A DNA stretch of 51,991 bases from Candidatus Micrarchaeota archaeon (GCA_040757035.1 JBFLYM010000005.1:1-51991); one strand, 5' to 3'; counted from the first letter of the stretch, positions 9,376 to 49,369 are shown. Numbers and translations: made by a program. The notes: generated from the letters alone by a model not told the origin.

Positions 9376-9885
9376 ATGGATAAAATTACATTTTTAATAT
9401 CGCATTTGGATGTATCGCTTATAACTAATATTGCAATATTTCTGGATAATGATGTTAATTTAATAATGACAATATTATTACTCGTAGTTTTAACCGAGCA
9501 GAGGATGAATAAAGTTGGAAAAATAATATTTGCAATAATATTAGCAACATTGATTGGTGCAATGTTGAAGCAAGTAATACAATTTGAGAGACCATGCGTT
9601 TCTAATCCTGCAAAAATTGTCTGTCCGTCTTCATTTTCATTTCCAAGCGGCCATACATTATTGGTATTTACTGTGTTTCTTGCATTCCTCAACAAAAAAT
9701 ATTTTCCGATTTATCTGGCATTTGGTATTTTTGTTGCATTTAGCCGAATTTATCTAGGTGTACATTCTCTTGAAGATATTGCCGGAAGTATAGCACTTGC
9801 GCCTTTAGTGTATTACATTACAGATGGAATGTGGAATTTTATTGGAAAGACGTTTGAAAGAAATCTTGCTATACCGATCCACTAA
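9376..9885 (+). CDS. PAP2 family membrane phosphatase
   Basis: K-x6-RP, FPSGH, SRIYLGVHSLEDI motifs. Confidence 0.9.
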   Translation: MDKITFLISHLDVSLITNIAIFLDNDVNLIMTILLLVVLTEQRMNKVGKIIFAIILATLIGAMLKQVIQFERPCVSNPAKIVCPSSFSFPSGHTLLVFTVFLAFLNKKYFPIYLAFGIFVAFSRIYLGVHSLEDIAGSIALAPLVYYITDGMWNFIGKTFERNLAIPIH

Positions 9886-9966
9886 AAAAACGTGGATCGC
9901 ATATACGCAACCCATCGAGATAAAACCTAGAAAACAAAACCGGAAAAACTTAGTTGGTTGCGTATA
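9870..9966. repeat. 97-bp two-hairpin repeat, copy 1
   Basis: 94/97 identical to 11777-11873; stems CGATCCAC/GTGGATCG and TATACGCAACC/GGTTGCGTATA. Confidence 0.92.
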
Positions 9967-10603: not shown

Positions 10604-11830
10604 ATGATTTTCGCGCAAAAACATATCCCAAAAAAGATTGATGATGTTGCTGGAAATGATGAAGCAAAATCGCACATAAAGCAATGGATTCTTAATTGGC
10701 TACGTGGCGTGCGGCAAAAACCATTGCTTATTTATGGACCGACCGGTATTGGCAAAACAACGATCGCTTACGCGCTTAAAGCAGAATTTGATCTTGAATT
10801 GATAGAGATAAATGCGAGCGATTTGCGCAACGCTGCGCAAATAGAAAAAATACTTGTGAATGCAGGATGTTCATTCTCGCTTTCCGGGAAAAACAAGCTT
10901 CTTTTAATTGATGATGTTGATGCGCTACAACGAGAAGATGTTGGTGGAGTGCGCGCAATCTCTACCGTACTAAAAAATGCCATGGTTCCAGTACTCCTCA
11001 CTGCTGAAAATATTTGGGATAAAAAAATTGCGGGAATAGTGAATGAAGCGCGTGCAATTGCGTTCAGGCGAGTATCAAAATCTTCGGTGTTGAAAGTACT
11101 GAAAAAAATCGCTTACGCTGAAAAGATTGAGATAGATGATACGAAATTAGAATTTATTGCGGAAAATTGCGGTGGAGATTTGCGCTCTGCGATAAATGAT
11201 CTGCAAGCCGGCATGAGCGGAATGCGCAATCGCGAAAAAGATGTTTTTGAACGAATGAAAATTGTTTTCAAATCAACATTATACAAAGAGGCAAGAGAAG
11301 CTGCTTGGGGCGATATTGAACACGAATTTCTCAAGCTCTGGATAGATGAAAACATCCCCTATGAATATGAAAAAAAAGACGATATCGCTTATGCATATAA
11401 CATACTTTCGCGTGCAGATATATTTGATGGACGCATAATTAATAGACAATACTGGGGATTTCTGCGTTATTCTAATGATCTTATGACCGCAGGCGTTTCA
11501 TTGGCGAAAAGAGAGCGATATATAAAATTTGTTCGTTATCAATTCCCTAACTATCTAAGACAAATGAGTGCTTCTTCTGCAAAAAGAGCGACACTTAAGC
11601 GAATAGGGCTTAAAATAGGCGCAAAGGTTCATTGCAACTGGAAACAATCTTTGTTGTATTTGAATGTAATAAAACAGATGCTTCTCGCAATTCCGGAGTG
11701 TGCTGAATTTTATTTGTTTGAAGATGATGAAGTGTCATTAATATGCGGACTTTCGGTTTTAGATTTAAAAAAAGAATATACCGATCCACTAAAAAAACGT
11801 GGATCGCATATACGCAACCTGTCGAGATAA
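10604..11830 (+). CDS. rfcL: Replication factor C large subunit
   Basis: GPTGIGKTT, IEINASDLR, GDLRSAINDLQ, WIDENIP; last codons come from the 97-bp repeat. Confidence 0.93.
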   Translation: MIFAQKHIPKKIDDVAGNDEAKSHIKQWILNWLRGVRQKPLLIYGPTGIGKTTIAYALKAEFDLELIEINASDLRNAAQIEKILVNAGCSFSLSGKNKLLLIDDVDALQREDVGGVRAISTVLKNAMVPVLLTAENIWDKKIAGIVNEARAIAFRRVSKSSVLKVLKKIAYAEKIEIDDTKLEFIAENCGGDLRSAINDLQAGMSGMRNREKDVFERMKIVFKSTLYKEAREAAWGDIEHEFLKLWIDENIPYEYEKKDDIAYAYNILSRADIFDGRIINRQYWGFLRYSNDLMTAGVSLAKRERYIKFVRYQFPNYLRQMSASSAKRATLKRIGLKIGAKVHCNWKQSLLYLNVIKQMLLAIPECAEFYLFEDDEVSLICGLSVLDLKKEYTDPLKKRGSHIRNLSR

Positions 11831-11873
11831 AACCTAAAAAACAAAACCGGAAAAACTTAGTTGGTTGCGTATA
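11777..11873. repeat. 97-bp two-hairpin repeat, copy 2
   Basis: Matches 9870-9966; lies between converging rfcL and rps10. Confidence 0.92.
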
Positions 11874-14240: not shown

Positions 14241-14906
14241 ATGTTGTCAATAGCGATATTAATTCCTACATTTAATGAAGAAGAAGGAATAGGGGAACTA
14301 ATAGACCAAGTGCGAAGAATTTCCGGAGATAAATGGACTATTTATGTTGTAGATAGCCAAAGTACAGATCAAACGGTGGAAATAGCAAAACTAAAGGGAG
14401 TCAAAATAATCAATACCATTGAGCGAGGTAAAGGATTAGCGATAAACACAGCATTTCAAAAGATCGATGATGAATTTGTCGTAGTGATAGATGCGGATTT
14501 GAGCTATGATCCAAAAGATATTCCCAGAATATTGGAAAAATTAAATAAATACGACGTAGTTTTGGGCAGTCGCTTCAAAGGTAATATTGAGAATAATTCA
14601 ATGAGTGTAATCAATAAGTTCGGCAACTTCATGCTTAATGTATTAGCAAACATACTTTATTTTAAAAATGTTAGCGATGTGTGCACTGGTATATGGGGAT
14701 TCACCAAAAAGACCTACAAATCAATGGTGATAGATGCGCCACATTTTGAGCTTGAGGCTAATTTTTTTACCCAAGCAATAAAGAAAAAATTTACGATATG
14801 CGAAGTTCCGATTTCATACAAAAAGCGCGCTGGTATATCTAAACTTGGCATAATAGATGGTTTTAAAATTGCATTATACCTCATAAAAAGCAAAATGGGC
14901 CCGTAG
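14241..14906 (+). CDS. GT2 glycosyltransferase (Dpm1-like)
   Basis: IPTFNEE, DADLSY, R-x-G-x-SKL. Confidence 0.9.
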   Translation: MLSIAILIPTFNEEEGIGELIDQVRRISGDKWTIYVVDSQSTDQTVEIAKLKGVKIINTIERGKGLAINTAFQKIDDEFVVVIDADLSYDPKDIPRILEKLNKYDVVLGSRFKGNIENNSMSVINKFGNFMLNVLANILYFKNVSDVCTGIWGFTKKTYKSMVIDAPHFELEANFFTQAIKKKFTICEVPISYKKRAGISKLGIIDGFKIALYLIKSKMGP

Positions 14907-15036
14907 TCGAAAGCTCTTCGATAACAATAATTATCAGTAAGGCAATTGTTATTCAATCGTTATTGATAGAGTCGATAGTGGTTAAGACACCACTCTCACA
15001 CAGTGGGGATTCGCGGTTCAATTCCGCGCAGGCCCA
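14897..15036 (+). tRNA. tRNA-Val(CAC) with 65-nt D-loop intron (14913-14977, about position 16/17)
   Basis: GGGCCCG/CAGGCCC acceptor, CCACT-CT-CAC-AC-AGTGG anticodon arm, CGCGG-TTCAATT-CCGCG T arm; BHB TCGA/TCGA with bulges AA^G and TA^G, inner helix CTCT/AGAG. Confidence 0.88.
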
Positions 15037-15142
15037 ATGCTAATGTAAATTTATTTTTTCAGAAAACGCAAAAACTATAATTTGCTTCGAACTATAATTC
15101 GCTCCGCGAAAAAACAGTATTTGATTCTGTAATTGGGGTTTT

Positions 15143-18869: not shown

Positions 18870-18994
18870 TGTATAACCATTTATATTCAAATATGCAGAC
18901 GAAAATTGTATAATGGATTTTTACTGCCTACAGATTTTTATACCTTTCTTTTTTTAAAGAGAAAGAGATATAGGAATTCAAACAAATAAAAAAG

Positions 18995-19237
18995 CGCTAG
19001 GGGGGAGATTTTCAATTTTTCCTTCCTCATTTCATCTTTATCCTCATGCTCTTAATTAGAGTAGGATGGTGGATGAGGAAGGATAATGTTGTACTTAATT
19101 TTCCTTCCTCATTTTGAACTCCCGGACGCTTTCGCGCAACAGGTTTCCGCTTGTCCCAGAATCAAGGACTGAAAACCGAAAACTGGAAACTAAAAACAAT
19201 AGCAACCTGCCGCCCTACCGGACTAGGCGACCCCAGC
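18995..19237 (-). tRNA. tRNA-Ser(GCT) with introns at 37/38 (19145-19199, 55 nt) and 59/60 (19009-19112, 104 nt)
   Basis: GCTGGGG/CCCTAGC acceptor, G73, long variable arm GCGC-GAAA-GCGT; BHB central helices TTGC/GCGG and TTCA/TGAA. Confidence 0.88.
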
Positions 19238-26945: not shown

Positions 26946-26982
26946 GCTGTCCGCCAACTCACTCGAATAAAAATAAAAAATA
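26946..26982. repeat. Left-end remnant of the 68-bp MITE at 49003-49070
   Basis: GCTGTCCGCCAACTCACTCGAATAAAAATAAAAAATA vs GCTGTCCGCTAACTCGCTTGAATAAAAATAAAAAATA. Confidence 0.75.
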
Positions 26983-27032
26983 GTGCAATTAATATACGAT
27001 AGATTTATATGATGTAGTCAATTTAGAAATAC

Positions 27033-27486
27033 ATCCCTTTTTCTTTTTCTAAAAGAAAAAGGTCTAAGGGGTTAACTGACACTGTGTTGACTAATGCCAC
27101 CTATTTTAAGAGGTAGGTAAATGCTACCAGTATTTGCGCTTTTTCCTGGTTGGCACATCGCCCAATATGTGCAACATAAAGGGCGATGCCCCGTTTTACT
27201 GGGTTAGTCACACAGTGTCACCCCAAAAAGAAAAGTGGGGGAGGGTCAGGAGGATATGACAAACCAACAAAGTAATATCAGAAAGTACCGAAGAATTACC
27301 ATGTGTTGGTTTGTTATATGTTCATGAACGAATCGTCGTTCATGACACCTCAAACTGTTCAAAACTGTTTGAGCACCCACCTAAAAAACATTCGAACGAT
27401 TCGTCGTTCGAAAATTTTTATTTTACTTTGTAAAATAAAAACCCCCAACCAGTTTTGGAGGGGGCGAAGCCCCCTCCGCGGTTCGG
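27033..27486 (+). mobile_element. Free-standing copy of the hairpin-rich element found in tRNA T-loop introns (core A, end type 2)
   Basis: Reverse-complement match to 39194-39454 over most of its length and to the end of 39455-39607; ends CCGCGGTTCGG. Confidence 0.88.
27077..27220. mobile_element. 144-bp MITE nested in the hairpin element
   Basis: TIRs TGACACTGTGTTGACTAA / TTAGTCACACAGTGTCA; interrupts GGGGTTAACCCC, which is intact in the copy at 39455-39607. Confidence 0.85.
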
Positions 27487-29579: not shown

Positions 29580-30143
29580 ATGTCATTGATGAGTGATACT
29601 GATGTTATTGAAGCAATAAACAAAGGCGAAATTGGAATAAAACCTTTTGACAAAAAATTCCTCGGTCCTGATAGTTTGGATATAAGATTAGGAGATGAAA
29701 TGCTTGTTTCTAAAATAATTAAAAAAACCATAGACCCAAACAAACCCAAAAATTTTTTTGTAAGCAAAAAGATAAAGCACTCATTCATACTTAAACCTAT
29801 GCAGTTTGTACTCGGAACAACTTTGGAAAGAATTTCATTATCAAATAATATTGCGGCACAAATAGAAGGGCGTTCAAGTTTAGGAAGATTGGGAATAATG
29901 GTGCATATGACAGCTGGAATTATTCATGCTGGTTTTGGAGCAAAGGGACCAAGTACGCTCACGCTTGAAATTTATTCAGTAAATCCAAACGATGTTTATC
30001 TGCACGCTGGGATGAAAATTGCACAGCTTTCGTTCTTCAAATTAAACAGAAAAGTGAGTAAAGGATATGACTTTATATCTACAAGTAAATATCTAAATCA
30101 AAATGGGCCACGTGCACCAAAAGCTGAAAGGAAAGAAAGATAA
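29580..30143 (+). CDS. dcd: dCTP deaminase
   Basis: SLDIRLG, EGRSSLGRLG, TAGIIHAGF, LTLEI; start 29580 or 29589. Confidence 0.92.
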   Translation: MSLMSDTDVIEAINKGEIGIKPFDKKFLGPDSLDIRLGDEMLVSKIIKKTIDPNKPKNFFVSKKIKHSFILKPMQFVLGTTLERISLSNNIAAQIEGRSSLGRLGIMVHMTAGIIHAGFGAKGPSTLTLEIYSVNPNDVYLHAGMKIAQLSFFKLNRKVSKGYDFISTSKYLNQNGPRAPKAERKER

Positions 30144-33517: not shown

Positions 33518-34696
33518 ATGGGAATTACTTTGTATTTAAATAGAAAAAACAATGAAATCGCGGTTAAAGAACCACAAGACGTAAGTTCGCTTGTAAATGG
33601 GTTTTATGGCGAAATGATCAAAGGAATAATTTATCTTCAGCCTGAAGAGGTCCTTTATTTAATAGATATACGAAATGCAAAATGCATTGATGAAGTTGGA
33701 AACACATGTATGTTCAATGACATTGCTACAATATTTCTGAAGAAAAAAAAATTACTCGCGCGCTATTTGACGTTCAAAGACTGGCGAGACAGGGGAATTA
33801 TTGCCCGCCTAAGTTGTGAAGCAAAAGGAAATTATGGTCGTTCGGTTGCAAAAAAATACAAAGGAGGAAATTTCAAAATTAATGCGTATTCTCTACAAGG
33901 CGTTTTCTTTTTTGATGATTTAATTACAATATTGGATGATGAAGCGAGCGGAAAAGAACTTTATGAAAAATATTGGATAGGGCAATTTGGAACGTACAAA
34001 GCGGCGCACCGCGGAAAAATCGCAAAACTAGATATTTATGAAACTATCTACATGCTCAAACACGGCAATCTCTCGCTCAAAAACGCAAAACTTGACGAAA
34101 TATTTTCCGAAGCCGATGATCGAATAAAATATTTTGGAGATATGTATTCTGTTTACGAGGATTGGAGAAATAAGGGTTATGTGCTCAAAACAGGTTTCAA
34201 ATTCGGAACCCATTTTAGGATTTATTTTCCTGGTGCGTCGCCAATAAAAGAGGATGATGAATGGATACATTCGCGACATGTTGTGCATATCTTTCCCAGA
34301 AAAAGTAAAATGCTAATTTCTGAATGGTCGCGCGCTATACGTGTTGCGCATTCTGTAAAAAAAACATTTATTCTTGCAATTCCTGGAAAAAAATTGGACA
34401 TAAAAATAAATCCGAAAAAACCAAAATCGGATTTTATACTTTATCATAGAAAAAAAGGTGGAATACAAACTCCAAAGGACGGCCAACCGCGGTTTTTTAT
34501 GTATTCGCTTTCAGAAGACGAATATCTTGGCGGCGAAGAGCTTGCTGAAGTTCTTTTTGAAGCAAAGCACTATGGTTTGGAAACGCTTTTAGCAATTACA
34601 GATAGAGAAAGTAGCGTTACTTATTATGTTGTAAAAAGAATAGAACTTCCTGCTAGCGATTACGAATATTACGAAATAGAATGGATGCAACCTTAA
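33518..34696 (+). CDS. endA: tRNA splicing endonuclease, three-unit (epsilon2/ARMAN-like)
   Basis: KTGFKFGTHFRIY (catalytic Tyr), HSRH, RVAHSVKK (catalytic Lys); extra N- and C-terminal units; 392 aa; WIGQFGTYK loop. Confidence 0.92.
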   Translation: MGITLYLNRKNNEIAVKEPQDVSSLVNGFYGEMIKGIIYLQPEEVLYLIDIRNAKCIDEVGNTCMFNDIATIFLKKKKLLARYLTFKDWRDRGIIARLSCEAKGNYGRSVAKKYKGGNFKINAYSLQGVFFFDDLITILDDEASGKELYEKYWIGQFGTYKAAHRGKIAKLDIYETIYMLKHGNLSLKNAKLDEIFSEADDRIKYFGDMYSVYEDWRNKGYVLKTGFKFGTHFRIYFPGASPIKEDDEWIHSRHVVHIFPRKSKMLISEWSRAIRVAHSVKKTFILAIPGKKLDIKINPKKPKSDFILYHRKKGGIQTPKDGQPRFFMYSLSEDEYLGGEELAEVLFEAKHYGLETLLAITDRESSVTYYVVKRIELPASDYEYYEIEWMQP

Positions 34697-34791
34697 ATTT
34701 CTGAATGGTCGCGCGCTATACGCGTTGCGCATTCTGTAAAAAAAACATTTATTCTTGCAATTCCTGGAAAAAAATTGGACATAAAAATAAA
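34696..34791 (+). repeat. 96-bp direct copy of internal endA segment 34315-34410
   Basis: One mismatch (CGTGTT vs CGCGTT). Confidence 0.93.
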
Positions 34792-34807: not shown

Positions 34808-35018
34808 TAGCGGGAGATGGAAATTCAGCTTCCAGCAAACGACGATTCTTTTGCTGTTTTGTTAGCTGTCTTGTTTGTCGTTTTTCAAATCTCGCAAGAT
34901 TTAAAAATTCTGTTTCTCGTTTTTGTTTTTCGGTTTTGAAATTTGGAATATAAAGCATTTGAACCAACGATCTCCGGGTTATGAGCCCGGCGGGCACTCC
35001 AAACTACCCTATCCCGCT
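34808..35018 (-). tRNA. Initiator tRNA-Met(CAT) with 136-nt intron at 59/60 (34822-34957)
   Basis: A1-U72 AGCGGGA/TCCCGCT, CCGGG-CT-CAT-AA-CCCGG; strict BHB TTCA/TGAA, bulges AA^T and TT^T, inner helix GCTT/AAGC. Confidence 0.93.
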
Positions 35019-36065: not shown

Positions 36066-37739
36066 GTGAAATTATCGTTCATGACTTCTTTTGATAAATT
36101 TCATCTTCAAAAAATTATAGGTACTAATAGAAGTAATGATAATAAATACATAAAAATAGAATTGCCGCTTGTAGATTGCAATGGCAAAGCAGAAAAGTAT
36201 TTTGCTTTCGTTGAATTAGGCAAAACATTGCAGGACGAAATTTACCGTGTATTTCATGAAGATTCGCGCGGTCAATGCGTTCTCGCTACTTCTGTTATTG
36301 AAGGAAAAAATAGGACGTACATTCAAAAAATAGAATTCAATGGAACAGAATTCCAAAACATTCAAGTATATCCAATTCTTGAAAATTCAAGAGAGTATGG
36401 TCTTCCTTATGTAATAGTAAACGGCAAAGCCTATTTTCCTGGAGCAGATGAATTGAAAATTTCGCAGGATTTGGTGCGTATTGGCATTCAGGATGATACG
36501 CAATATGGCACTCAAGACCTCCCAGATTACATAAGATTTCATGGTGGTGGATGTTGTCCACTCACTGAACAAAAATCACTTGAACTCAAACTTGATAGAT
36601 GGAATACGATAACCGAATTAGAACTCAGTGCTTATAATGCAAATAATCTGCTAAATAATCTAAATTTTGATACAAATTTTGATATTTTTGATGTAAATTT
36701 TGATACAAATTTTAATATAGCAAAAGAGGAGCCTCCTCTTTCTTTTATACATGAATTGTCTGCTCTATCAATCTACCGGTCGCAATACGATAATGATGAA
36801 AGAGAATCATATTCAACAGATAGTACTGAAGGAATACCAGCAGTCACTATAAATAGTACAAGATTAAGGAGAGCTAGGAAAGGTAATGGGATAATACTAA
36901 CAGAAGCAGCAGTAAACGCAACAATGCAAGCTAATTTAACTACGTTGATGAGTGATACTGATGTTATTGAAGCAATAAACAAAGGCGAAATTGGAATAAA
37001 ACCTTTTGACAAAATAATAGACAAAAAAAATAAAACGGGCCCGAAGGGATTTTCAACCGAACCGCGGAAGGGGAAACCCCCTCCCCCAGTTTTTCTTTTT
37101 GGGGTTGATACAGATCTTGATCTTGTTGTATTATCATCAACATCTGTTTTTCTTTGGGGTGGACCCCCCAAACCTTTCTTTTTTTTAAAAAGAAAGGGAT
37201 ATGGGTTTGAACCCTCGACCTACGGATATCCTCGTTGCTTCCTAGGTAGTATTTCAAATTCTGCGCGTCGGACGCTTGAAACGCGAAACCAACGATCAAA
37301 AACTCAAAATCCAAAATCCAAAATCCAAAATCCAAAATGCGGAACTGAATCTTCAGATCTCGCAAGATTTGGAAAAATAGCAAACGAACCATTGTTTGCT
37401 GGAAGCATAAAAGTCCGCCGCTCTGGCCAAGCTGAGCTACAGGCCCTAAATAAAGGCACTAAAGATACAAGTAAAGGATATAATACAACAGAAATAAATA
37501 AAAAGGGTAATAATTCTTACAATGCTTTTGATATTCTCAAAACTTTGAAACAAAAAAAAGAAGCAGGAAAAAAGATAAAGAAGAAGACAGAAGAAAAAAC
37601 AGAAATCGCTTTTTTATCTCCGCATGAAAAAGCGCATCGGAATACAGCTACTCATTGGACTATCGCCACTATACCCGTTATATCTTTTTCCACCGCGTTT
37701 CAGAATCATCATCTTCCAGTGAAATACCAAATTGCTTAA
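36066..37739 (+). CDS. Hypothetical protein; frame stays open through a dcd fragment and antisense across tRNA-Lys
   Basis: First ~290 aa look like genuine coding sequence; the remainder is translated repeat and tRNA sequence, so the true end is uncertain. Confidence 0.5.
   Translation: MKLSFMTSFDKFHLQKIIGTNRSNDNKYIKIELPLVDCNGKAEKYFAFVELGKTLQDEIYRVFHEDSRGQCVLATSVIEGKNRTYIQKIEFNGTEFQNIQVYPILENSREYGLPYVIVNGKAYFPGADELKISQDLVRIGIQDDTQYGTQDLPDYIRFHGGGCCPLTEQKSLELKLDRWNTITELELSAYNANNLLNNLNFDTNFDIFDVNFDTNFNIAKEEPPLSFIHELSALSIYRSQYDNDERESYSTDSTEGIPAVTINSTRLRRARKGNGIILTEAAVNATMQANLTTLMSDTDVIEAINKGEIGIKPFDKIIDKKNKTGPKGFSTEPRKGKPPPPVFLFGVDTDLDLVVLSSTSVFLWGGPPKPFFFLKRKGYGFEPSTYGYPRCFLGSISNSARRTLETRNQRSKTQNPKSKIQNPKCGTESSDLARFGKIANEPLFAGSIKVRRSGQAELQALNKGTKDTSKGYNTTEINKKGNNSYNAFDILKTLKQKKEAGKKIKKKTEEKTEIAFLSPHEKAHRNTATHWTIATIPVISFSTAFQNHHLPVKYQIA
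36945..37014 (+). repeat. 70-bp identical copy of the dcd 5' region (29586-29655)
   Basis: TTGATGAGTGATACTGATG...CCTTTTGACAAAA at both sites. Confidence 0.93.
37036..37446 (-). tRNA. tRNA-Lys(TTT) with introns at 37/38 (37228-37407, 180 nt) and 59/60 (37050-37205, 156 nt)
   Basis: GGGCCTG/CGGGCCC acceptor, GCTC/GAGC D stem, GCGGA-CT-TTT-A^A-TCCGT, GAGGG-TTCAAA^T-CCCTT; BHB central helices CTTT/GAGG and TTCA/TGAA. Confidence 0.9.
37056..37204 (-). mobile_element. Hairpin element (core B, end type 1) forming the tRNA-Lys T-loop intron
   Basis: Plus strand ACCGAACCGCGG...GGGATATGG; closely matches 39455-39607. Confidence 0.88.
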
Positions 37740-39099
37740 GCCGTTTCCTTATTTCATCTGATGTTTTGAAATCTTTCTTTTTTCTCGCATTATTACGCAA
37801 TTCAATAATCAGTCTAACCAATTGTTCAATCAATTGTTTCGCTTTATCATCAGAATTTTTACTTTCATTTTTTAATTCTAATCCAAGTATATAAAGTGCA
37901 TTTTCCATCTCTTTTTTTATGAATTCAAACGCTTCGTAATCGTATGTCTTGTTATCAATAAGGGCGCTATTTGCAGATTTCATTATTGAAAATAAGTATG
38001 TCATCGCGGTTGGCATGTCAAAATCGTATTCCAAAAAATGATAGAAATTTTTGAATTTAGCCTTCATTTCGTTCATTAATTTTACATTACGCGCATTTCT
38101 CTTTTTTCTTTTCGTGATTGCGTTGTTAATATTGTCCATAAAATTAAATATGCGCGCAACTGTGGTTTCAGCCTGCTTTATTTGCACAGGATTGTAATCC
38201 ATTGGACTGCGGTAGTTTGCGAGTGCAAAAAACATGCGCACCGCATTCGGACTGTGCATGCTAAGCACATCTTTCAGCGTCACAAAATTGCCCAAACTTT
38301 TGCTCATTTTTTCTCCGCTTACAGTAAGAAAGCCGGTGTGCAACCAGTACTTTACAAATTGAACGCCGTTCGCGGTTTCGCTTTGCGCGATTTCATTCTC
38401 GTGATGCGGAAATATTAAATCTTTTGCTCCGCCATGAATATCCAGCGTTTTAGCATATTTTCCACTCATCGCACTGCATTCAATATGCCACCCCGGTCTT
38501 CCTTTACCCCACGGACTATTAAATTCAATTATCTCATCTTTTGTTTTTTTCCAGAGCGCGAAGTCTTCAGGATTTTTTTTGGTTTCGTCCAATTCCTTTC
38601 GCGTACCTGTACGTATCTCGCCCATTTTTTGGCCAGAGAGCATACCGTAGTTTTGGAATTTGTTCACTTCAAAATACACCCCTGTTTCGGTTTCGTACGC
38701 AAAACCTCTACTGATTAAAATTTTGATCATTTCTATAATTTCCGGGATGTGTTGGGTGACTTTTGGATAAACATCGGCATCCAGAATGCGCAGTTTTTTG
38801 AAGAGTTCAATTGCCTCCGAATGAAATTTTTTCGTTAATTCTTCAGGTTTTTGATTGGTTTCCTTAGCACGCGCAATTATTTTGTCATCAACATCCGTTA
38901 TGTTCTGAATATGAAAAATTTTGTATCCCTTAAGAATAAGAAAGCGCTTTAGCATATCAAAAGCGACATATGTTCTTGCGTGTCCAACATGTACATGATC
39001 ATAAGGTGTAAGTCCACATACATAGATATTTACTTTATCATTATTCAAAGGTTTGAACTCTTCAATCTTTTTCGTGAGCGAATTGTAAAATTTCATCAT
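37678..39099 (-). CDS. cysS: Cysteine-tRNA ligase
   Basis: YVCGLTPYD, HVGH, GRPGWHIECSAM, FPHHENE, KMSKS. Confidence 0.98.
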   Translation of the reverse strand: MMKFYNSLTKKIEEFKPLNNDKVNIYVCGLTPYDHVHVGHARTYVAFDMLKRFLILKGYKIFHIQNITDVDDKIIARAKETNQKPEELTKKFHSEAIELFKKLRILDADVYPKVTQHIPEIIEMIKILISRGFAYETETGVYFEVNKFQNYGMLSGQKMGEIRTGTRKELDETKKNPEDFALWKKTKDEIIEFNSPWGKGRPGWHIECSAMSGKYAKTLDIHGGAKDLIFPHHENEIAQSETANGVQFVKYWLHTGFLTVSGEKMSKSLGNFVTLKDVLSMHSPNAVRMFFALANYRSPMDYNPVQIKQAETTVARIFNFMDNINNAITKRKKRNARNVKLMNEMKAKFKNFYHFLEYDFDMPTAMTYLFSIMKSANSALIDNKTYDYEAFEFIKKEMENALYILGLELKNESKNSDDKAKQLIEQLVRLIIELRNNARKKKDFKTSDEIRKRLKQFGISLEDDDSETRWKKI

Positions 39100-39173
39100 A
39101 TTATCCGAATTTGTTTTCCGAATTTTAAGAATTTTGGCGATTAATGATTAACTAATGATCAATACAGATAAAT

Positions 39174-39710
39174 TGGGCCCGCGGAGATTCTCAACCGAAC
39201 CGCGGAGGGGGAAACCCCTCCAAAACTGGTTGAGGGTTTTTAGGTGGGTGCTCAAACAGTTTTGAACAGTTTGAGGTGTCATGAACGACGATTCGTTCAT
39301 GAACATATAACAAACCAACACACGGTAATTCTTCGATACTTTCTGAATTACTTTGTTGGTTTGTCATATCATCCTGACCCTCCCCCAACGAATCGTTTTT
39401 TCTTTGGGGTGGACCCCTCAGACCTTTCTTTTTTTTAAAAAGAAAGGGATATGGACCGAACCGCGGAGGGGGAAACCCCCTCCCCCAGTTTTTCTTTTTG
39501 GGGTTGATACAGATCTTGATCTTGTTGTATTACTATCAACATCTGTTTTTCTTTTTGGGGTTAACCCCTTAGACCTTTTTCTTTTTCTAAAAGAAAAAGG
39601 GATATGGGTTTGAACTCCGAACCTATGGCTAGCTCAGACAGTCATTTATTGTTTTGTATTAAAGGACGTCATATAAGACCATCGCTCTAACCTGGATGAG
39701 CTACGGGCCC
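39174..39710 (-). tRNA. tRNA-Ile(TAT) with introns at 37/38 (39631-39671, 41 nt) and 59/60 (39188-39608, 421 nt)
   Basis: GGGCCCG/CGGGCCC-A73, ATGGT-CT-TAT-A^A-GCCAT, CGGAG-TTCAAA^T-CTCCG; BHB central helices CTTA/TGAG and TTCA/TGAG. Confidence 0.88.
39194..39607 (-). mobile_element. Two head-to-tail hairpin elements (39194-39454 core A; 39455-39607 core B) inside the tRNA-Ile intron
   Basis: Both units run ACCGAACCGCGG...GGGATATGG on the plus strand; junction GGGATATGG|ACCGAACC. Confidence 0.9.
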
Positions 39711-49002: not shown

Positions 49003-49070
49003 TAGGCTGTCCGCTAACTCGCTTGAATAAAAATAAAAAATATATTTTTAATTAATTAGCGGACAATATA
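49003..49070. mobile_element. 68-bp MITE with 8-bp target site duplication
   Basis: TIR core TGTCCGCTAA/TTAGCGGACA; TCTTACTT at 48995-49002 and 49071-49078. Confidence 0.8.
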
Positions 49071-49288: not shown

Positions 49289-49357
49289 AGTTTTTTCTTT
49301 GGGGTTGATACAGATTTTATTGTACTATTATCAATATCCGTTTTTCTTTTTGGGGTT
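49289..49357 (-). repeat. Diverged core-B fragment of the tRNA-intron hairpin element
   Basis: TTTGGGGTTGATACAGAT...TATCAATATCCGTTTTTCTTTTTGGGGTT matches the core of 37056-37204 and 39455-39607. Confidence 0.8.
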
Positions 49358-49369
49358 GAAACGCAAACA

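What the first reader, a model, noticed from the sequence alone, without database searches (positions are those of the whole stretch)
37050..39608. Hairpin-rich mobile element living inside tRNA T-loop introns
Seen: the 59/60 introns of tRNA-Lys (156 nt) and tRNA-Ile (421 nt) are each C + element + TGA(A/G)AA. The element (tRNA sense CCATATCCC...CCGCGGTTCGGT) is a chain of stem-loops with no recognisable protein-coding ORF. Related copies lie outside tRNAs at 27033-27486 and 49289-49357. Inference: a non-autonomous element family made neutral by BHB splicing, either inserting into short pre-existing T-loop introns or travelling as an intron between tRNAs. The excised circles would be abundant structured RNAs. 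I do not recognise this as a described family.
Basis: partly seen in the sequence, partly recalled or inferred. Interest (0 to 1): 0.9.

Follow-up and report, generated by a model that had tools for sequence, protein, structure and literature searches.

The report
Repeat elements filling tRNA T-loop introns
In this tiny archaeon (Micrarchaeota) two essential tRNA genes carry large introns in their T-loops that are stuffed with copies of a hairpin-rich repeat family also scattered between genes, giving a rare direct view of how archaeal tRNA introns grow and spread.

Summary
tRNA-Lys(UUU) (37036-37446, minus) and tRNA-Ile(UAU) (39174-39710, minus) each carry a 37/38 intron and a 59/60 T-loop intron of 156 and 421 nt. 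The T-loop introns are built from repeated stem-loop modules. In-silico splicing gives canonical 75-nt tRNAs, and no intron-less copy exists in the assembly.

The organism is a Micrarchaeota archaeon. Its broad-specificity epsilon2 splicing endonuclease lies in the same window, and RtcB is present.

Orthologous tRNAs in 11 relatives all have a 59/60 intron, but with different and mostly short content. The intron is therefore ancestral and its filling is recent.

The "element" is composite. Its 5' part (M1) is the genus' own T-loop intron family. Its 3' part (M3, about 60 nt, two hairpins, sequence-invariant) is a patchily distributed element of the phylum: 60 of 401 genomes, 0 of 6 congeners. 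M3 often sits at tRNA exon boundaries.

In this genome 44 loci carry modules: 19 in tRNA introns and 25 intergenic. One intergenic copy has empty orthologous sites.

No reverse transcriptase, integrase or DDE transposase was found. The Y1 transposase present has unrelated ends and is not co-distributed with M3. How the modules move is unresolved. I rate it a new variant of known kinds.

The parts
37036..37446 (-). tRNA-Lys(UUU) gene with two introns
   Evidence: Sequence reading. ARAGORN calls a 75-nt tRNA-Lys(ttt) after in-silico splicing. No other copy is in the assembly. Its exons are nearly identical to those of the syntenic G006 gene.
37050..37205 (-). 59/60 T-loop intron of tRNA-Lys, 156 nt: M1 (CCCATATCCC plus 2 hairpins), M2, short M3, then TGAAAA
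   Evidence: Fold z = -4.6. It is 90% identical over 161 nt to unit 1 of the Ile intron.
37228..37407 (-). 37/38 intron of tRNA-Lys, 180 nt. It contains a tandem heptamer run and the hairpin GCTTCCAGCAAAC..GTTTGCT
   Evidence: ARAGORN intron call i(40,180). The syntenic G006 gene has no such intron.
39174..39710 (-). tRNA-Ile(UAU) gene with two introns
   Evidence: Orthologues are present in 11 relatives.
39188..39608 (-). 59/60 T-loop intron of tRNA-Ile, 421 nt. It holds two tandem units (39607..39455 and 39454..39194) followed by TGAGAA
   Evidence: Fold z = -9.8.
39237..39387 (-). Nested modules M4/M5 inside the first hairpin loop of M3 in unit 2
   Evidence: 97-98% identical to 27236-27387. 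At least 12 further copies at 90-99% identity lie on other contigs.
27031..27486 (+). Intergenic composite copy (M1', TIR-bearing M7, M3 with M4/M5/M6). It lies between the TATA-like box and the start codon of an ftsZ-like gene
   Evidence: The orthologous leaders in G006, G003 and G002 lack it.
49289..49359 (-). Intergenic M2-type copy abutting a gene end
18942..18974 (-). Fragment like M1 hairpin 1, about 20 nt downstream of tRNA-Ser
18995..19237 (-). tRNA-Ser(GGA). Its 59/60 intron (19112..19009, 104 nt) belongs to a different sequence family and ends in TTGAAAA
34808..35018 (-). tRNA-Met(CAU). Its 59/60 intron runs about 34957..34822 and ends in TGAATT. The 3' boundary is my own reading
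   Evidence: The hairpin at 34828-34860 matches the Lys 37/38 intron (I6).
33518..34696 (+). epsilon2-type (three-unit) tRNA splicing endonuclease EndA, 392 aa
   Evidence: PF01974 match. Full-length match to PDB 4FZ2, E = 3e-138, residues 3-392 against 3-387. Orthologues are present in 386 of 401 genomes sampled from the phylum.

Best explanation
These are two essential, single-copy tRNA genes of a Micrarchaeota archaeon. Their ancestral 59/60 (T-loop) BHB introns have been enlarged in this lineage by a modular family of non-coding stem-loop repeats.

The T-loop intron is a safe harbour. It is cut out by the epsilon2 EndA encoded 2.3 kb away and the exons are rejoined by RtcB. Anything placed between the first intron base and the last six (TGARAA) is therefore harmless.

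The 5' module, M1, is the genus' own T-loop intron sequence.

The 3' module, M3, is an independent unit of about 60 nt. It reads GGGGGAGGGTCAGGARGACCCTCAAACTGGGGAGGGG-loop-CCCCTCCGCGGTTCGG and is sequence-invariant. It is spread patchily through the phylum. In other genomes it lies between genes, at the very ends of tRNA genes, or in tRNA introns.

In this genome M3 joined M1. The M1-(M2)-M3 composite, with further modules nested in hairpin loops, was then copied in three ways:
- in tandem
- into the T-loop introns of many other tRNAs, always in the sense orientation
- into the short spacers at gene ends

Shown: the gene structures, the ancestry of the intron, the copy numbers, one empty site, the distribution, and the absence of known mobility genes.

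Inferred: that splicing actually occurs; that spread happens at the DNA level by copy-and-paste or gene conversion using host functions or an unidentified trans-acting enzyme; and that compact-genome selection explains why copies survive only where RNA processing or gene ends tolerate them.
For: Gene structure and necessity:
- Spliced sequences are canonical tRNAs, and no intron-less copy is found in the 95%-complete assembly.
- ARAGORN's other 'Lys ttt' call is a miscalled long-arm tRNA.

A 3-4-3 BHB can be drawn across each junction. T54-A57 pairs with TGA(A/G), and the bulges are AA|C and AA|T. By my reading, 14 of 17 complete T-loop introns have all four central pairs and 3 of 17 have three of four.

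Enzymes present: epsilon2 EndA and RtcB. The ARMAN-2 epsilon2 enzyme cleaves a 59/60 intron in vitro (PMC3239211, passages read).

Ancestral intron: 11 of 11 relatives have a 59/60 intron in tRNA-Ile, with differing content of 38 to about 170 nt. The G006 tRNA-Lys has a 27-nt 59/60 intron and no 37/38 intron.

M1 as a genus intron family: the junction GTTCRAANNCATATCC occurs in 10 of 176 genomes of the order. That is 6 of 8 in the genus and 9 copies in this genome. M1-type introns of about 85-95 nt are present in several tRNAs of congeners.

Recent spread:
- 44 loci of at least 60 nt: 19 are flanked by tRNA exon sequence and 25 are not.
- Of 40 M3 3' ends, 12 are followed by a tRNA 3' exon, 12 by the next M1 in tandem, and 16 by other sequence.
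- All 18 T-loop copies are in the tRNA sense orientation.
- The ftsZ-leader copy is missing from 3 congeners.

M3 distribution: 22 exact core matches in 18 other MAGs. It is found in 60 of 401 genomes of the phylum, 28 of 155 genera and 0 of 6 congeners.

M3 and tRNAs: in 14 of 40 loci M3 is within 100 nt of, or inside, a tRNA that ARAGORN can call. In 9 of 40 its 3' end lies within 2 nt of an exon boundary. In 0 of 40 does its 5' end do so.
Against: - There is no RNA evidence that the introns are removed.
- No agent of mobility was identified. Not found: RVT_1, phage integrase, Cas1, rve, DDE_Tnp_1 or IS110.
- The one Y1 transposase has ends unrelated to the modules.
- 0 of 24 intergenic clusters in this genome have flanking direct repeats of 8 nt or more. 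Insertion as opposed to other rearrangement is therefore shown at only one locus here.
- M3 is invariant in 19 copies from other genomes. It is 62 of 62 identical at an orthologous locus of two genomes whose flanks are only about 75-80% alike. That pattern fits a selected function as well as it fits mobility.
- 11 of 44 loci touch contig ends, so tandem arrangements may be mis-assembled.
Confidence: 0.75

Rival explanations
1. Retrotransposition, in the manner of SINEs. Excised intron RNAs or read-through transcripts that end in M3 are reverse-transcribed at nicked targets. M3 would be the 3' handle recognised by a reverse transcriptase.
For: - M3 has an exact 3' end and a variable 5' side: spacers of 13-36 nt lie between the upstream repeat and M3.
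- Direct repeats flanking M3 vary in length from 13 to 30 nt. They occur in 7 of 42 loci outside this genome and in 0 of 42 displaced controls. One of the seven (L073) is explained by the T-arms of neighbouring tRNAs.
- Intergenic copies in this genome are colinear with the intron, including tails that resemble its 3' end, such as GGTTCGG(G)TTAGA.
Against: - No RVT_1 in this genome, which holds about 40 M3 copies.
- RVT_1 occurs in 67 of 401 genomes. Only 14 of the 60 M3-bearing genomes have it, against 10 expected by chance.
- 0 of 24 intergenic clusters here have repeats of 8 nt or more.
- The spacer of one repeat-flanked copy matches no other locus in its genome.
Confidence: 0.08
2. Not mobile. 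All the T-loop introns descend from one ancestral intron and are kept alike by gene conversion. The intergenic copies are remnants of dead tRNA genes.
For: - M1 sits at the same position (59/60) in many tRNAs and in several genomes.
- Several intergenic copies keep AAACCC before CATATCCC and a tail like the intron's 3' end.
- The Lys intron is 90% identical to unit 1 of the Ile intron 2.4 kb away.
Against: - M3 and the inner modules were not found in the 6-7 congeners searched, yet they are present in other genera, families and orders.
- The ftsZ-leader copy has empty orthologous sites and no tRNA remnant.
- In other genomes M3 lies inside 37/38 introns, in both orientations, and between protein genes.
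Confidence: 0.07
3. M3, and perhaps M1, is a functional RNA or DNA signal kept by selection rather than a selfish repeat. It could be a processing or protein-binding site linked to tRNA genes, or a terminator module at gene ends.
For: - M3 is invariant across 19 copies from other MAGs.
- It is identical at an orthologous site whose flanks have diverged.
- It is strongly associated with tRNA gene boundaries.
- In this genome 14 of 24 intergenic clusters lie within 9 nt of an ORF end. The antisense strand offers a GC hairpin followed by a T-run.
Against: - The distribution is patchy: 60 of 401 genomes, with 0 of 94 and 0 of 83 in two large families.
- First-look candidate counts per genome range from none to 39.
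- It occurs in both orientations and inside introns that are discarded.
- There is no covariation to show an RNA structure under selection: 0 of 19 pairs covary.
Confidence: 0.07
4. A derivative of an IS200/IS605 element (PATE or REP-like), mobilised in trans by the Y1 (HUH) transposase.
For: - The modules are hairpins.
- M1 5' ends follow similar short motifs: TTCAAA, TTCGG(T/A), TTCAGA or CCAAA.
- One tnpA (C41:250-699) lies 140 nt from an M3-bearing tRNA.
Against: - The ends of the tnpA/tnpB elements, defined from three copies, share nothing with the modules.
- Y1_Tnp is present in 141 of 401 genomes but in only 12 of the 60 that carry M3. It is 0 of 7 in a genus where M3 is 7 of 7.
Confidence: 0.03

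Closest known systems
Non-canonical 59/60 tRNA introns and the epsilon2 EndA of Candidatus Micrarchaeum (ARMAN-2). Fujishima et al. 2011, PMC3239211 (passages read); structure PDB 4FZ2
   Same: Same phylum and the same three-unit endonuclease (E = 3e-138 over the full length). Same intron position, 59/60, with a strict or relaxed BHB. A high share of the tRNA genes are disrupted.
   Different: The ARMAN-2 59/60 intron that was tested is 13 nt. The introns here are 156 and 421 nt (up to 593 nt on contig C16). They are built from repeats that also occur outside tRNAs.
[quoted passage not shown] Fujishima et al. 2010, known to me only through the reviews PMC4033280 and PMC4090602 (passages read); the paper itself is not held
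   Same: Near-identical intron sequences in tRNAs of different identity within one genome. The mechanism is unknown, and the reviews suppose it acts at the DNA level.
   Different: A different phylum and a different EndA type. Here the shared sequence also lies in intergenic DNA. One module is shared across families of the phylum, and the intron positions pre-exist in relatives.
Prokaryotic MITEs, REP/BIME and PATE repeats (named from my own knowledge; only the titles and abstract openings listed were seen)
   Same: Small, non-coding, multi-copy and hairpin-forming. They sit at gene ends and nest into each other.
   Different: The composite has no terminal inverted repeats and M3 has none. Only the nested M7 module has a 17-nt TIR. 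There is no fixed target duplication, no parent IS with the same ends, and no co-distributed transposase.
tRNA-Thr gene disruption by a 1.8-kb recombinase-encoding element in Caldiarchaeum. Sugahara et al. 2012, PMC3293823 (abstract read)
   Same: A mobile element is linked to intron gain in, and fragmentation of, an archaeal tRNA gene.
   Different: That element encodes a recombinase. No recombinase was found here, and the units are 60-460 nt.
Transposon-derived introns in eukaryotes (introners; PMC11282704, search listing only)
   Same: A non-autonomous repeat that survives because the host splicing machinery removes it from transcripts.
   Different: Those are spliceosomal introns in protein-coding genes. 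These are protein-spliced BHB introns in tRNAs.

Membership tests
Archaeal BHB (protein-spliced) tRNA intron at 59/60 | Removing the insert restores a canonical tRNA | tested here: met
   ARAGORN-nt tRNA-Lys(ttt) and tRNA-Ile(tat) after in-silico splicing.
Archaeal BHB (protein-spliced) tRNA intron at 59/60 | A bulge-helix-bulge motif, or a relaxed form of it, spans both splice sites | tested here: met
   A 3-4-3 motif can be drawn: T54-A57 pairs with TGA(A/G), and the bulges are AA|C and AA|T. By my reading, 14 of 17 complete T-loop introns have 4 of 4 central pairs. The unconstrained MFE fold shows a closely related pairing. The inner helix is weak.
Archaeal BHB (protein-spliced) tRNA intron at 59/60 | A splicing endonuclease of broad specificity and an RtcB ligase are encoded | tested here: met
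   epsilon2 EndA at 33518-34696, a second 168-aa EndA homologue on C4, and RtcB on C23.
Archaeal BHB (protein-spliced) tRNA intron at 59/60 | The intron is actually excised from the RNA | not testable with these tools
MITE (miniature inverted-repeat transposable element) | Terminal inverted repeats | tested here: not met
   The ends CCCATATCCC and CCGCGGTTCGG are not inverted copies of each other. Only the nested M7 module (within 27077-27219) has a 17-nt TIR.
MITE (miniature inverted-repeat transposable element) | Target-site duplication of fixed length | tested here: not met
   0 of 24 intergenic clusters in this genome have a repeat of 8 nt or more. Elsewhere 7 of 42 M3 loci have repeats of variable length, 13-30 nt.
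MITE (miniature inverted-repeat transposable element) | An autonomous relative with the same ends that encodes a transposase | tested here: not met
   No DDE_Tnp_1, rve, IS110 or Cas1. The ends of the IS200/IS605 elements are unrelated. Only this genome was searched for such a parent.
IS200/IS605-derived PATE, or REP with RAYT | A Y1 (HUH) transposase co-occurs with the repeat and recognises its hairpin ends | tested here: not met
   Y1_Tnp is in 12 of 60 M3-bearing genomes against 141 of 401 overall, and 0 of 7 in genus g13 where M3 is 7 of 7. No end similarity was found.
Intron transposition of the Thermoproteales kind | Highly similar introns in tRNAs of different identity in one genome | tested here: met
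   The Lys intron and Ile unit 1 are 90% identical over 161 nt. The same junction occurs in 9 tRNA loci of this genome.
SINE or other retroelement | A reverse transcriptase is available, and insertions are 3'-anchored with variable target duplications | tested here: inconclusive
   No RVT_1 here and no co-distribution with M3. However, M3 has a precise 3' end, a variable 5' spacer and 13-30-nt repeats in a minority of loci.
Any Rfam family | A covariance-model match | tested here: not met
   Nothing at gathering score in the finding's region. The best E-values, from 0.97 to 4.7, are to unrelated families.

The most novel reading that the evidence does not exclude
M3, and the M1-M3 composites built on it, may be a new kind of archaeal mobile element that needs no transposase of its own or of any known family.

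On this reading its invariant 3' terminus, GCGGTTCGG, resembles the 5' half of a tRNA T-arm. That terminus is what becomes joined next to tRNA exon boundaries: the 5' ends of genes, their 3' ends in antisense, and the 37/38 and 59/60 splice sites.

The element would persist because tRNA processing enzymes trim it out of every transcript: epsilon2 EndA with RtcB, RNase P and tRNase Z. If so, this genome shows archaeal tRNA introns being enlarged and spread now. It would give the first sequence-defined handle on the unknown mechanism of archaeal tRNA intron transposition.
Probability: 0.25. Interest if true: 0.85.

Novelty: new variant of a known kind. Interest (0 to 1): 0.68.

Why it matters
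Reviews state that the way archaeal tRNA introns at non-canonical positions are gained and spread is unknown (PMC4090602, passage read).

In this genome the same repeat units are found in three settings:
- inside 59/60 and 37/38 introns
- in tandem arrays
- at ordinary intergenic sites

Related genomes supply the 'before' states: short ancestral introns and one empty site. One unit is shared across families of the phylum.

This turns a comparative inference into something that can be tested directly. One could measure cleavage of very long T-loop introns by the epsilon2 endonuclease. One could look for circular intron RNAs. One could catch new insertions in population data.

There is also a practical point. 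Standard tRNA finders miss most tRNA genes in such genomes: ARAGORN found 0 of the 5 in the window with the tool's bacterial settings, and 16 calls genome-wide with anticodon-loop introns allowed, at least one of them wrong. Apparent tRNA gaps in DPANN MAGs may be artefacts of this kind.

Tried and rejected
- IS200/IS605 parent. I defined the ends of the tnpA/tnpB elements from C41, C34, C10 and C2. They are unrelated to the modules, and an apparent TTCAAA target at C41 turned out to be a variant of the element's own end. Y1_Tnp is not co-distributed with M3.
- Reverse transcriptase. None in this genome, and no co-distribution with M3.
- Integrase, Cas1, rve, DDE_Tnp_1 and IS110. None found. 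The assembly is 95% complete, so absence is not proven.
- epsilon2 EndA as the explanation for M3's patchy distribution. Rejected, because the enzyme is in 386 of 401 genomes.
- A search for a BHB across the intergenic copies. I drew plausible 3-4-3 motifs for three loci, then estimated that a 4-bp helix within the positional slack is expected by chance several times per locus. I make no claim from this.
- Target duplications in this genome: 0 of 24.
- A donor for the 5' spacer of a repeat-flanked M3 copy in G170: none found.
- Viral contigs: 0 matches to the M3 core.
- Rfam: nothing.
- Sequencing runs: no RNA holder was listed. Three DNA runs of one groundwater study are kept as contigs.
- The Fujishima 2010 paper is not held. 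I know it only through the reviews.
- Supplementary tables of the ARMAN papers, which list intron positions, were not opened.
- The tallies include the unpublished genomes G306 (all three) and G195 (only).

Full report
**1. What is at the coordinates**

On the minus strand lie two tRNA genes that ARAGORN and Rfam do not see as they stand.

tRNA-Lys(UUU) runs 37446..37036. It has a 180-nt intron at 37/38 (37407..37228) and a 156-nt intron between T-loop positions 59 and 60 (37205..37050).

tRNA-Ile(UAU) runs 39710..39174. It has a 41-nt 37/38 intron and a 421-nt 59/60 intron (39608..39188).

With both introns removed, ARAGORN calls canonical 75-nt tRNAs. BLAST of these spliced sequences finds no second copy in the 985-kb, 95%-complete assembly. 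ARAGORN's other 'tRNA-Lys ttt' on contig C46 is a miscalled long-arm tRNA.

This wording fits a 3-4-3 bulge-helix-bulge. T54-A57 pairs with TGA(A/G). A58-A59 plus the first intron C form one bulge. The last two intron A's plus T60 form the other. The T-stem is the outer helix.

By my reading, 14 of 17 complete T-loop introns in this genome have all four central pairs, and 3 have three of four.

The introns fold far better than shuffles: z = -4.6 and -9.8. They hold only short ORFs, and these are not conserved between near-identical copies.

**2. Which organism and which enzymes**

The 392-aa ORF at 33518-34696 matches the three-unit epsilon2 splicing endonuclease of ARMAN-2 (PDB 4FZ2) over its whole length, E = 3e-138.

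Records that share the repeat are titled Candidatus Micrarchaeota in 15 of 18 MAGs.

RtcB is present. The epsilon2 enzyme is found in 386 of 401 genomes sampled from the phylum.

For ARMAN-2, the literature describes 59/60 introns and in vitro cleavage of a 13-nt 59/60 intron by this enzyme type (PMC3239211, passages).

Within the window, 4 of 5 tRNA genes have a 59/60 intron: Ser, Met, Lys and Ile. The fifth, Val(CAC) near 14890-15037, has an insert in the D-arm instead.

**3. The intron is old and its filling is new**

The tRNA-Ile(UAU) orthologue in 11 of 11 relatives has an insert at 59/60. Seven of these relatives are in the same genus and four in other genera of the family. The content differs between them:
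- a 50-nt hairpin with a textbook inner helix in G006
- M1-like sequences of about 90 nt in G002 and G005
- an unrelated module in G003 and G004
- 38 nt in G020

In G006 the gene order Ile, CysRS, Lys is kept. There tRNA-Lys has a 27-nt 59/60 intron and no 37/38 intron. Its exons are almost identical to those here.

**4. The element is a composite of modules**

- **M1.** CCCATATCCC plus two hairpins and an A-rich tail. It is the T-loop intron family of the genus. The junction GTTCRAANNCATATCC occurs in 10 of 176 genomes of the order: 6 of 8 in the genus, 3 of 3 in one other genus, and 1 of 23 in a genus of another family. This genome has 9 copies. The reversed control pattern has 2 hits. In congeners, M1-type introns of about 85-95 nt close on themselves, with CCCATATCCC pairing with a 3' GGGATATGGG-like stretch.
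- **M2.** A 51-nt hairpin, repeated in tandem up to four times.
- **M3.** The two-hairpin unit ending in GCGGTTCGG.
- **M4, M5, M6, M7.** These sit inside hairpin loops of M3 or M1. M7 has a 17-nt inverted repeat.

I cannot tell insertion into hairpin loops from deletion of hairpin tips. The short M3 in the Lys intron looks like a deletion between GGGGGAGGG repeats.

**5. Copy number and places in this genome**

BLASTN gives 53 merged loci, of which 44 are at least 60 nt long and 11 touch a contig end or gap.

By reading the flanks, 19 of the 44 lie in tRNA introns and 25 do not. Of the 19, 18 are at 59/60 and one is at 37/38. All 18 at 59/60 are in the tRNA sense orientation.

Nine of the T-loop cases were confirmed by ARAGORN after splicing.

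Of 40 M3 3' ends, 12 are followed by the intron tail and a tRNA 3' exon, 12 by the next M1 in tandem, and 16 by other sequence.

The intergenic clusters fill the short spacers. 14 of 24 lie within 9 nt of an ORF end, and several overlap the stop codon of a convergent gene.

The copy at 27031-27486 sits between the TATA-like box and the start codon of an ftsZ-like gene. The orthologous leaders in three congeners lack it. This is the one clean empty site.

**6. M3 outside this genome**

The 29-nt core is found in 22 places in 18 other MAGs and in no viral contig.

A 62-nt query finds M3 in 60 of 401 genomes of the phylum and 28 of 155 genera. By group:
- 0 of 6 congeners
- 8 of 8 and 7 of 7 in two other genera of the same family
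- 0 of 94 and 0 of 83 in two large families

Nineteen copies from other genomes are identical at every paired position, so there is no covariation.

In 40 loci taken from the top of that list, ARAGORN finds a tRNA in 15. In 14 of those, the tRNA is within 100 nt of M3 or contains it.

In 9 loci the 3' end of M3 is within 2 nt of an exon boundary:
- the tRNA 5' end on the same strand, in 2 loci
- the tRNA 3' end on the opposite strand, in 3 loci
- a splice site at 37/38 or 59/60, in 4 loci

The 5' end of M3 is never that close.

Seven of 42 loci have direct repeats of 13-30 nt that start 0-2 nt after M3. The second copy lies upstream: 13-36 nt upstream in five loci and about 170 nt in two. One of the latter two is explained by neighbouring tRNA T-arms. 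None of 42 displaced controls has such a repeat.

**7. Mechanism**

The steps that are shown and those that are inferred are separated in the best explanation.

No known mobility enzyme accounts for the family. RT, tyrosine integrase, Cas1, rve, DDE_Tnp_1 and IS110 were not found.

The IS200/IS605 tnpA and tnpB present have their own, unrelated ends. Neither RT nor Y1 transposase is co-distributed with M3.

I therefore commit to DNA-level copying by host functions or an unidentified factor. Strong selection in a compact genome would leave only the copies that lie in introns, at tRNA ends and in gene-end spacers.

The enrichment in tRNA introns (19 of 44 loci) is far above their share of the non-coding DNA. 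That share is a rough estimate of my own, of a few percent. Together with the 3'-end asymmetry of M3, this keeps a targeted mechanism alive. That is the novel case.

**8. Comparison and novelty**

Three things are known:
- 59/60 introns with the epsilon2 EndA in Micrarchaeota
- intron 'transposition' between tRNAs in Thermoproteales, by an unknown mechanism
- hairpin repeats of the MITE, REP and PATE kinds

As far as five library searches show, the following are new:
- a defined repeat family shared between tRNA introns and intergenic DNA
- ancestral short introns visible in relatives
- a 60-nt invariant unit, present in many families of the phylum, that favours tRNA exon boundaries

It fails the defining tests for a MITE, a PATE and a retroelement. 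I file it as a new variant of known kinds.

**9. Cautions**

This is a short-read MAG with repeat-ended contigs. There is no RNA evidence. Many counts rest on my reading of printed flanks. The genomes sampled from the phylum are a sample, and related genomes are not independent.

Noticed in passing
window 34315-34410 and 34696-34791: A 96-nt piece from inside the EndA gene is repeated at 99% identity just after the EndA stop codon, next to the 3' end of tRNA-Met (D4).
   Followed up: partly
window 29586-29655 and 36945-37014: The first 70 nt of a gene whose N-terminus looks, to my eye, like dCTP deaminase (no search run) are repeated at 100% identity about 20 nt from the 3' end of tRNA-Lys. 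Together with the EndA fragment, this suggests that gene fragments are captured beside tRNA 3' ends.
   Followed up: partly
window 9870-9966 and 11777-11873; more than 25 places genome-wide: A separate repeat family of about 100 nt (TATACCGATCCACTAAAAAAACGTGGATCG...). On C43 it lies next to a TnpB remnant. On C1 it lies beside a module cluster.
   Followed up: no
window 26946-26982 and 49006-49042; also C6:33901 and C2:23444: A repeated 37-nt motif (GCTGTCCGCYAACTC...AATAAAAATAAAAAATA) lies upstream of both intergenic copies in the window. At 49k it is part of a hairpin. Its nature is unknown.
   Followed up: no
window 37374-37406 and 34828-34860; C11 near 20116: A hairpin, GCTTCCAGCAAAC..GTTTGCTGGAAGC, is shared by three introns: the 37/38 intron of tRNA-Lys(UUU), the T-loop intron of tRNA-Met, and the 37/38 intron of tRNA-Lys(CUU).
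   Followed up: no
window 37228-37407: The 180-nt 37/38 intron of tRNA-Lys contains a tandem heptamer run. The G006 orthologue lacks the whole intron.
   Followed up: partly
G000:C22:14393-14430: A (TTCGG)x5 microsatellite lies at the junction between the 3' end of M3 and the intron tail in one T-loop intron.
   Followed up: no
window 36066-37739 (+): A 557-aa open frame runs from a real-looking gene through the captured gene fragment and across the antisense strand of the whole tRNA-Lys gene. Beyond about 36944 it is probably a by-product of the T/G-rich strand.
   Followed up: no
L031, L032 (G074, another family of the order): Two tRNAs carry M1-type T-loop introns with the exact junction GTTCAAACCCATATCC. 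The other 22 genomes of that genus do not. Transfer between families is possible.
   Followed up: partly
L040 and L058: This is an orthologous M3 copy downstream of tRNA-Gly(CCC) in two genomes. M3 is 62 of 62 identical, while the flanking spacer is only about 75-80% alike by eye.
   Followed up: partly
L005 (G007), L011 (G017), L012 (G022): Relatives show further disruptions of the tRNA-Ile locus. There is a truncated 5' pseudo-copy followed by an M1-like piece (L005). There are extra introns in the T-stem (L011), and in both the D-loop and the T-stem (L012).
   Followed up: no
whole genome G000: With anticodon-loop introns allowed, ARAGORN finds only 16 tRNA genes, and at least one of those calls is wrong. 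Most tRNA genes of this genome are invisible to standard finders.
   Followed up: partly
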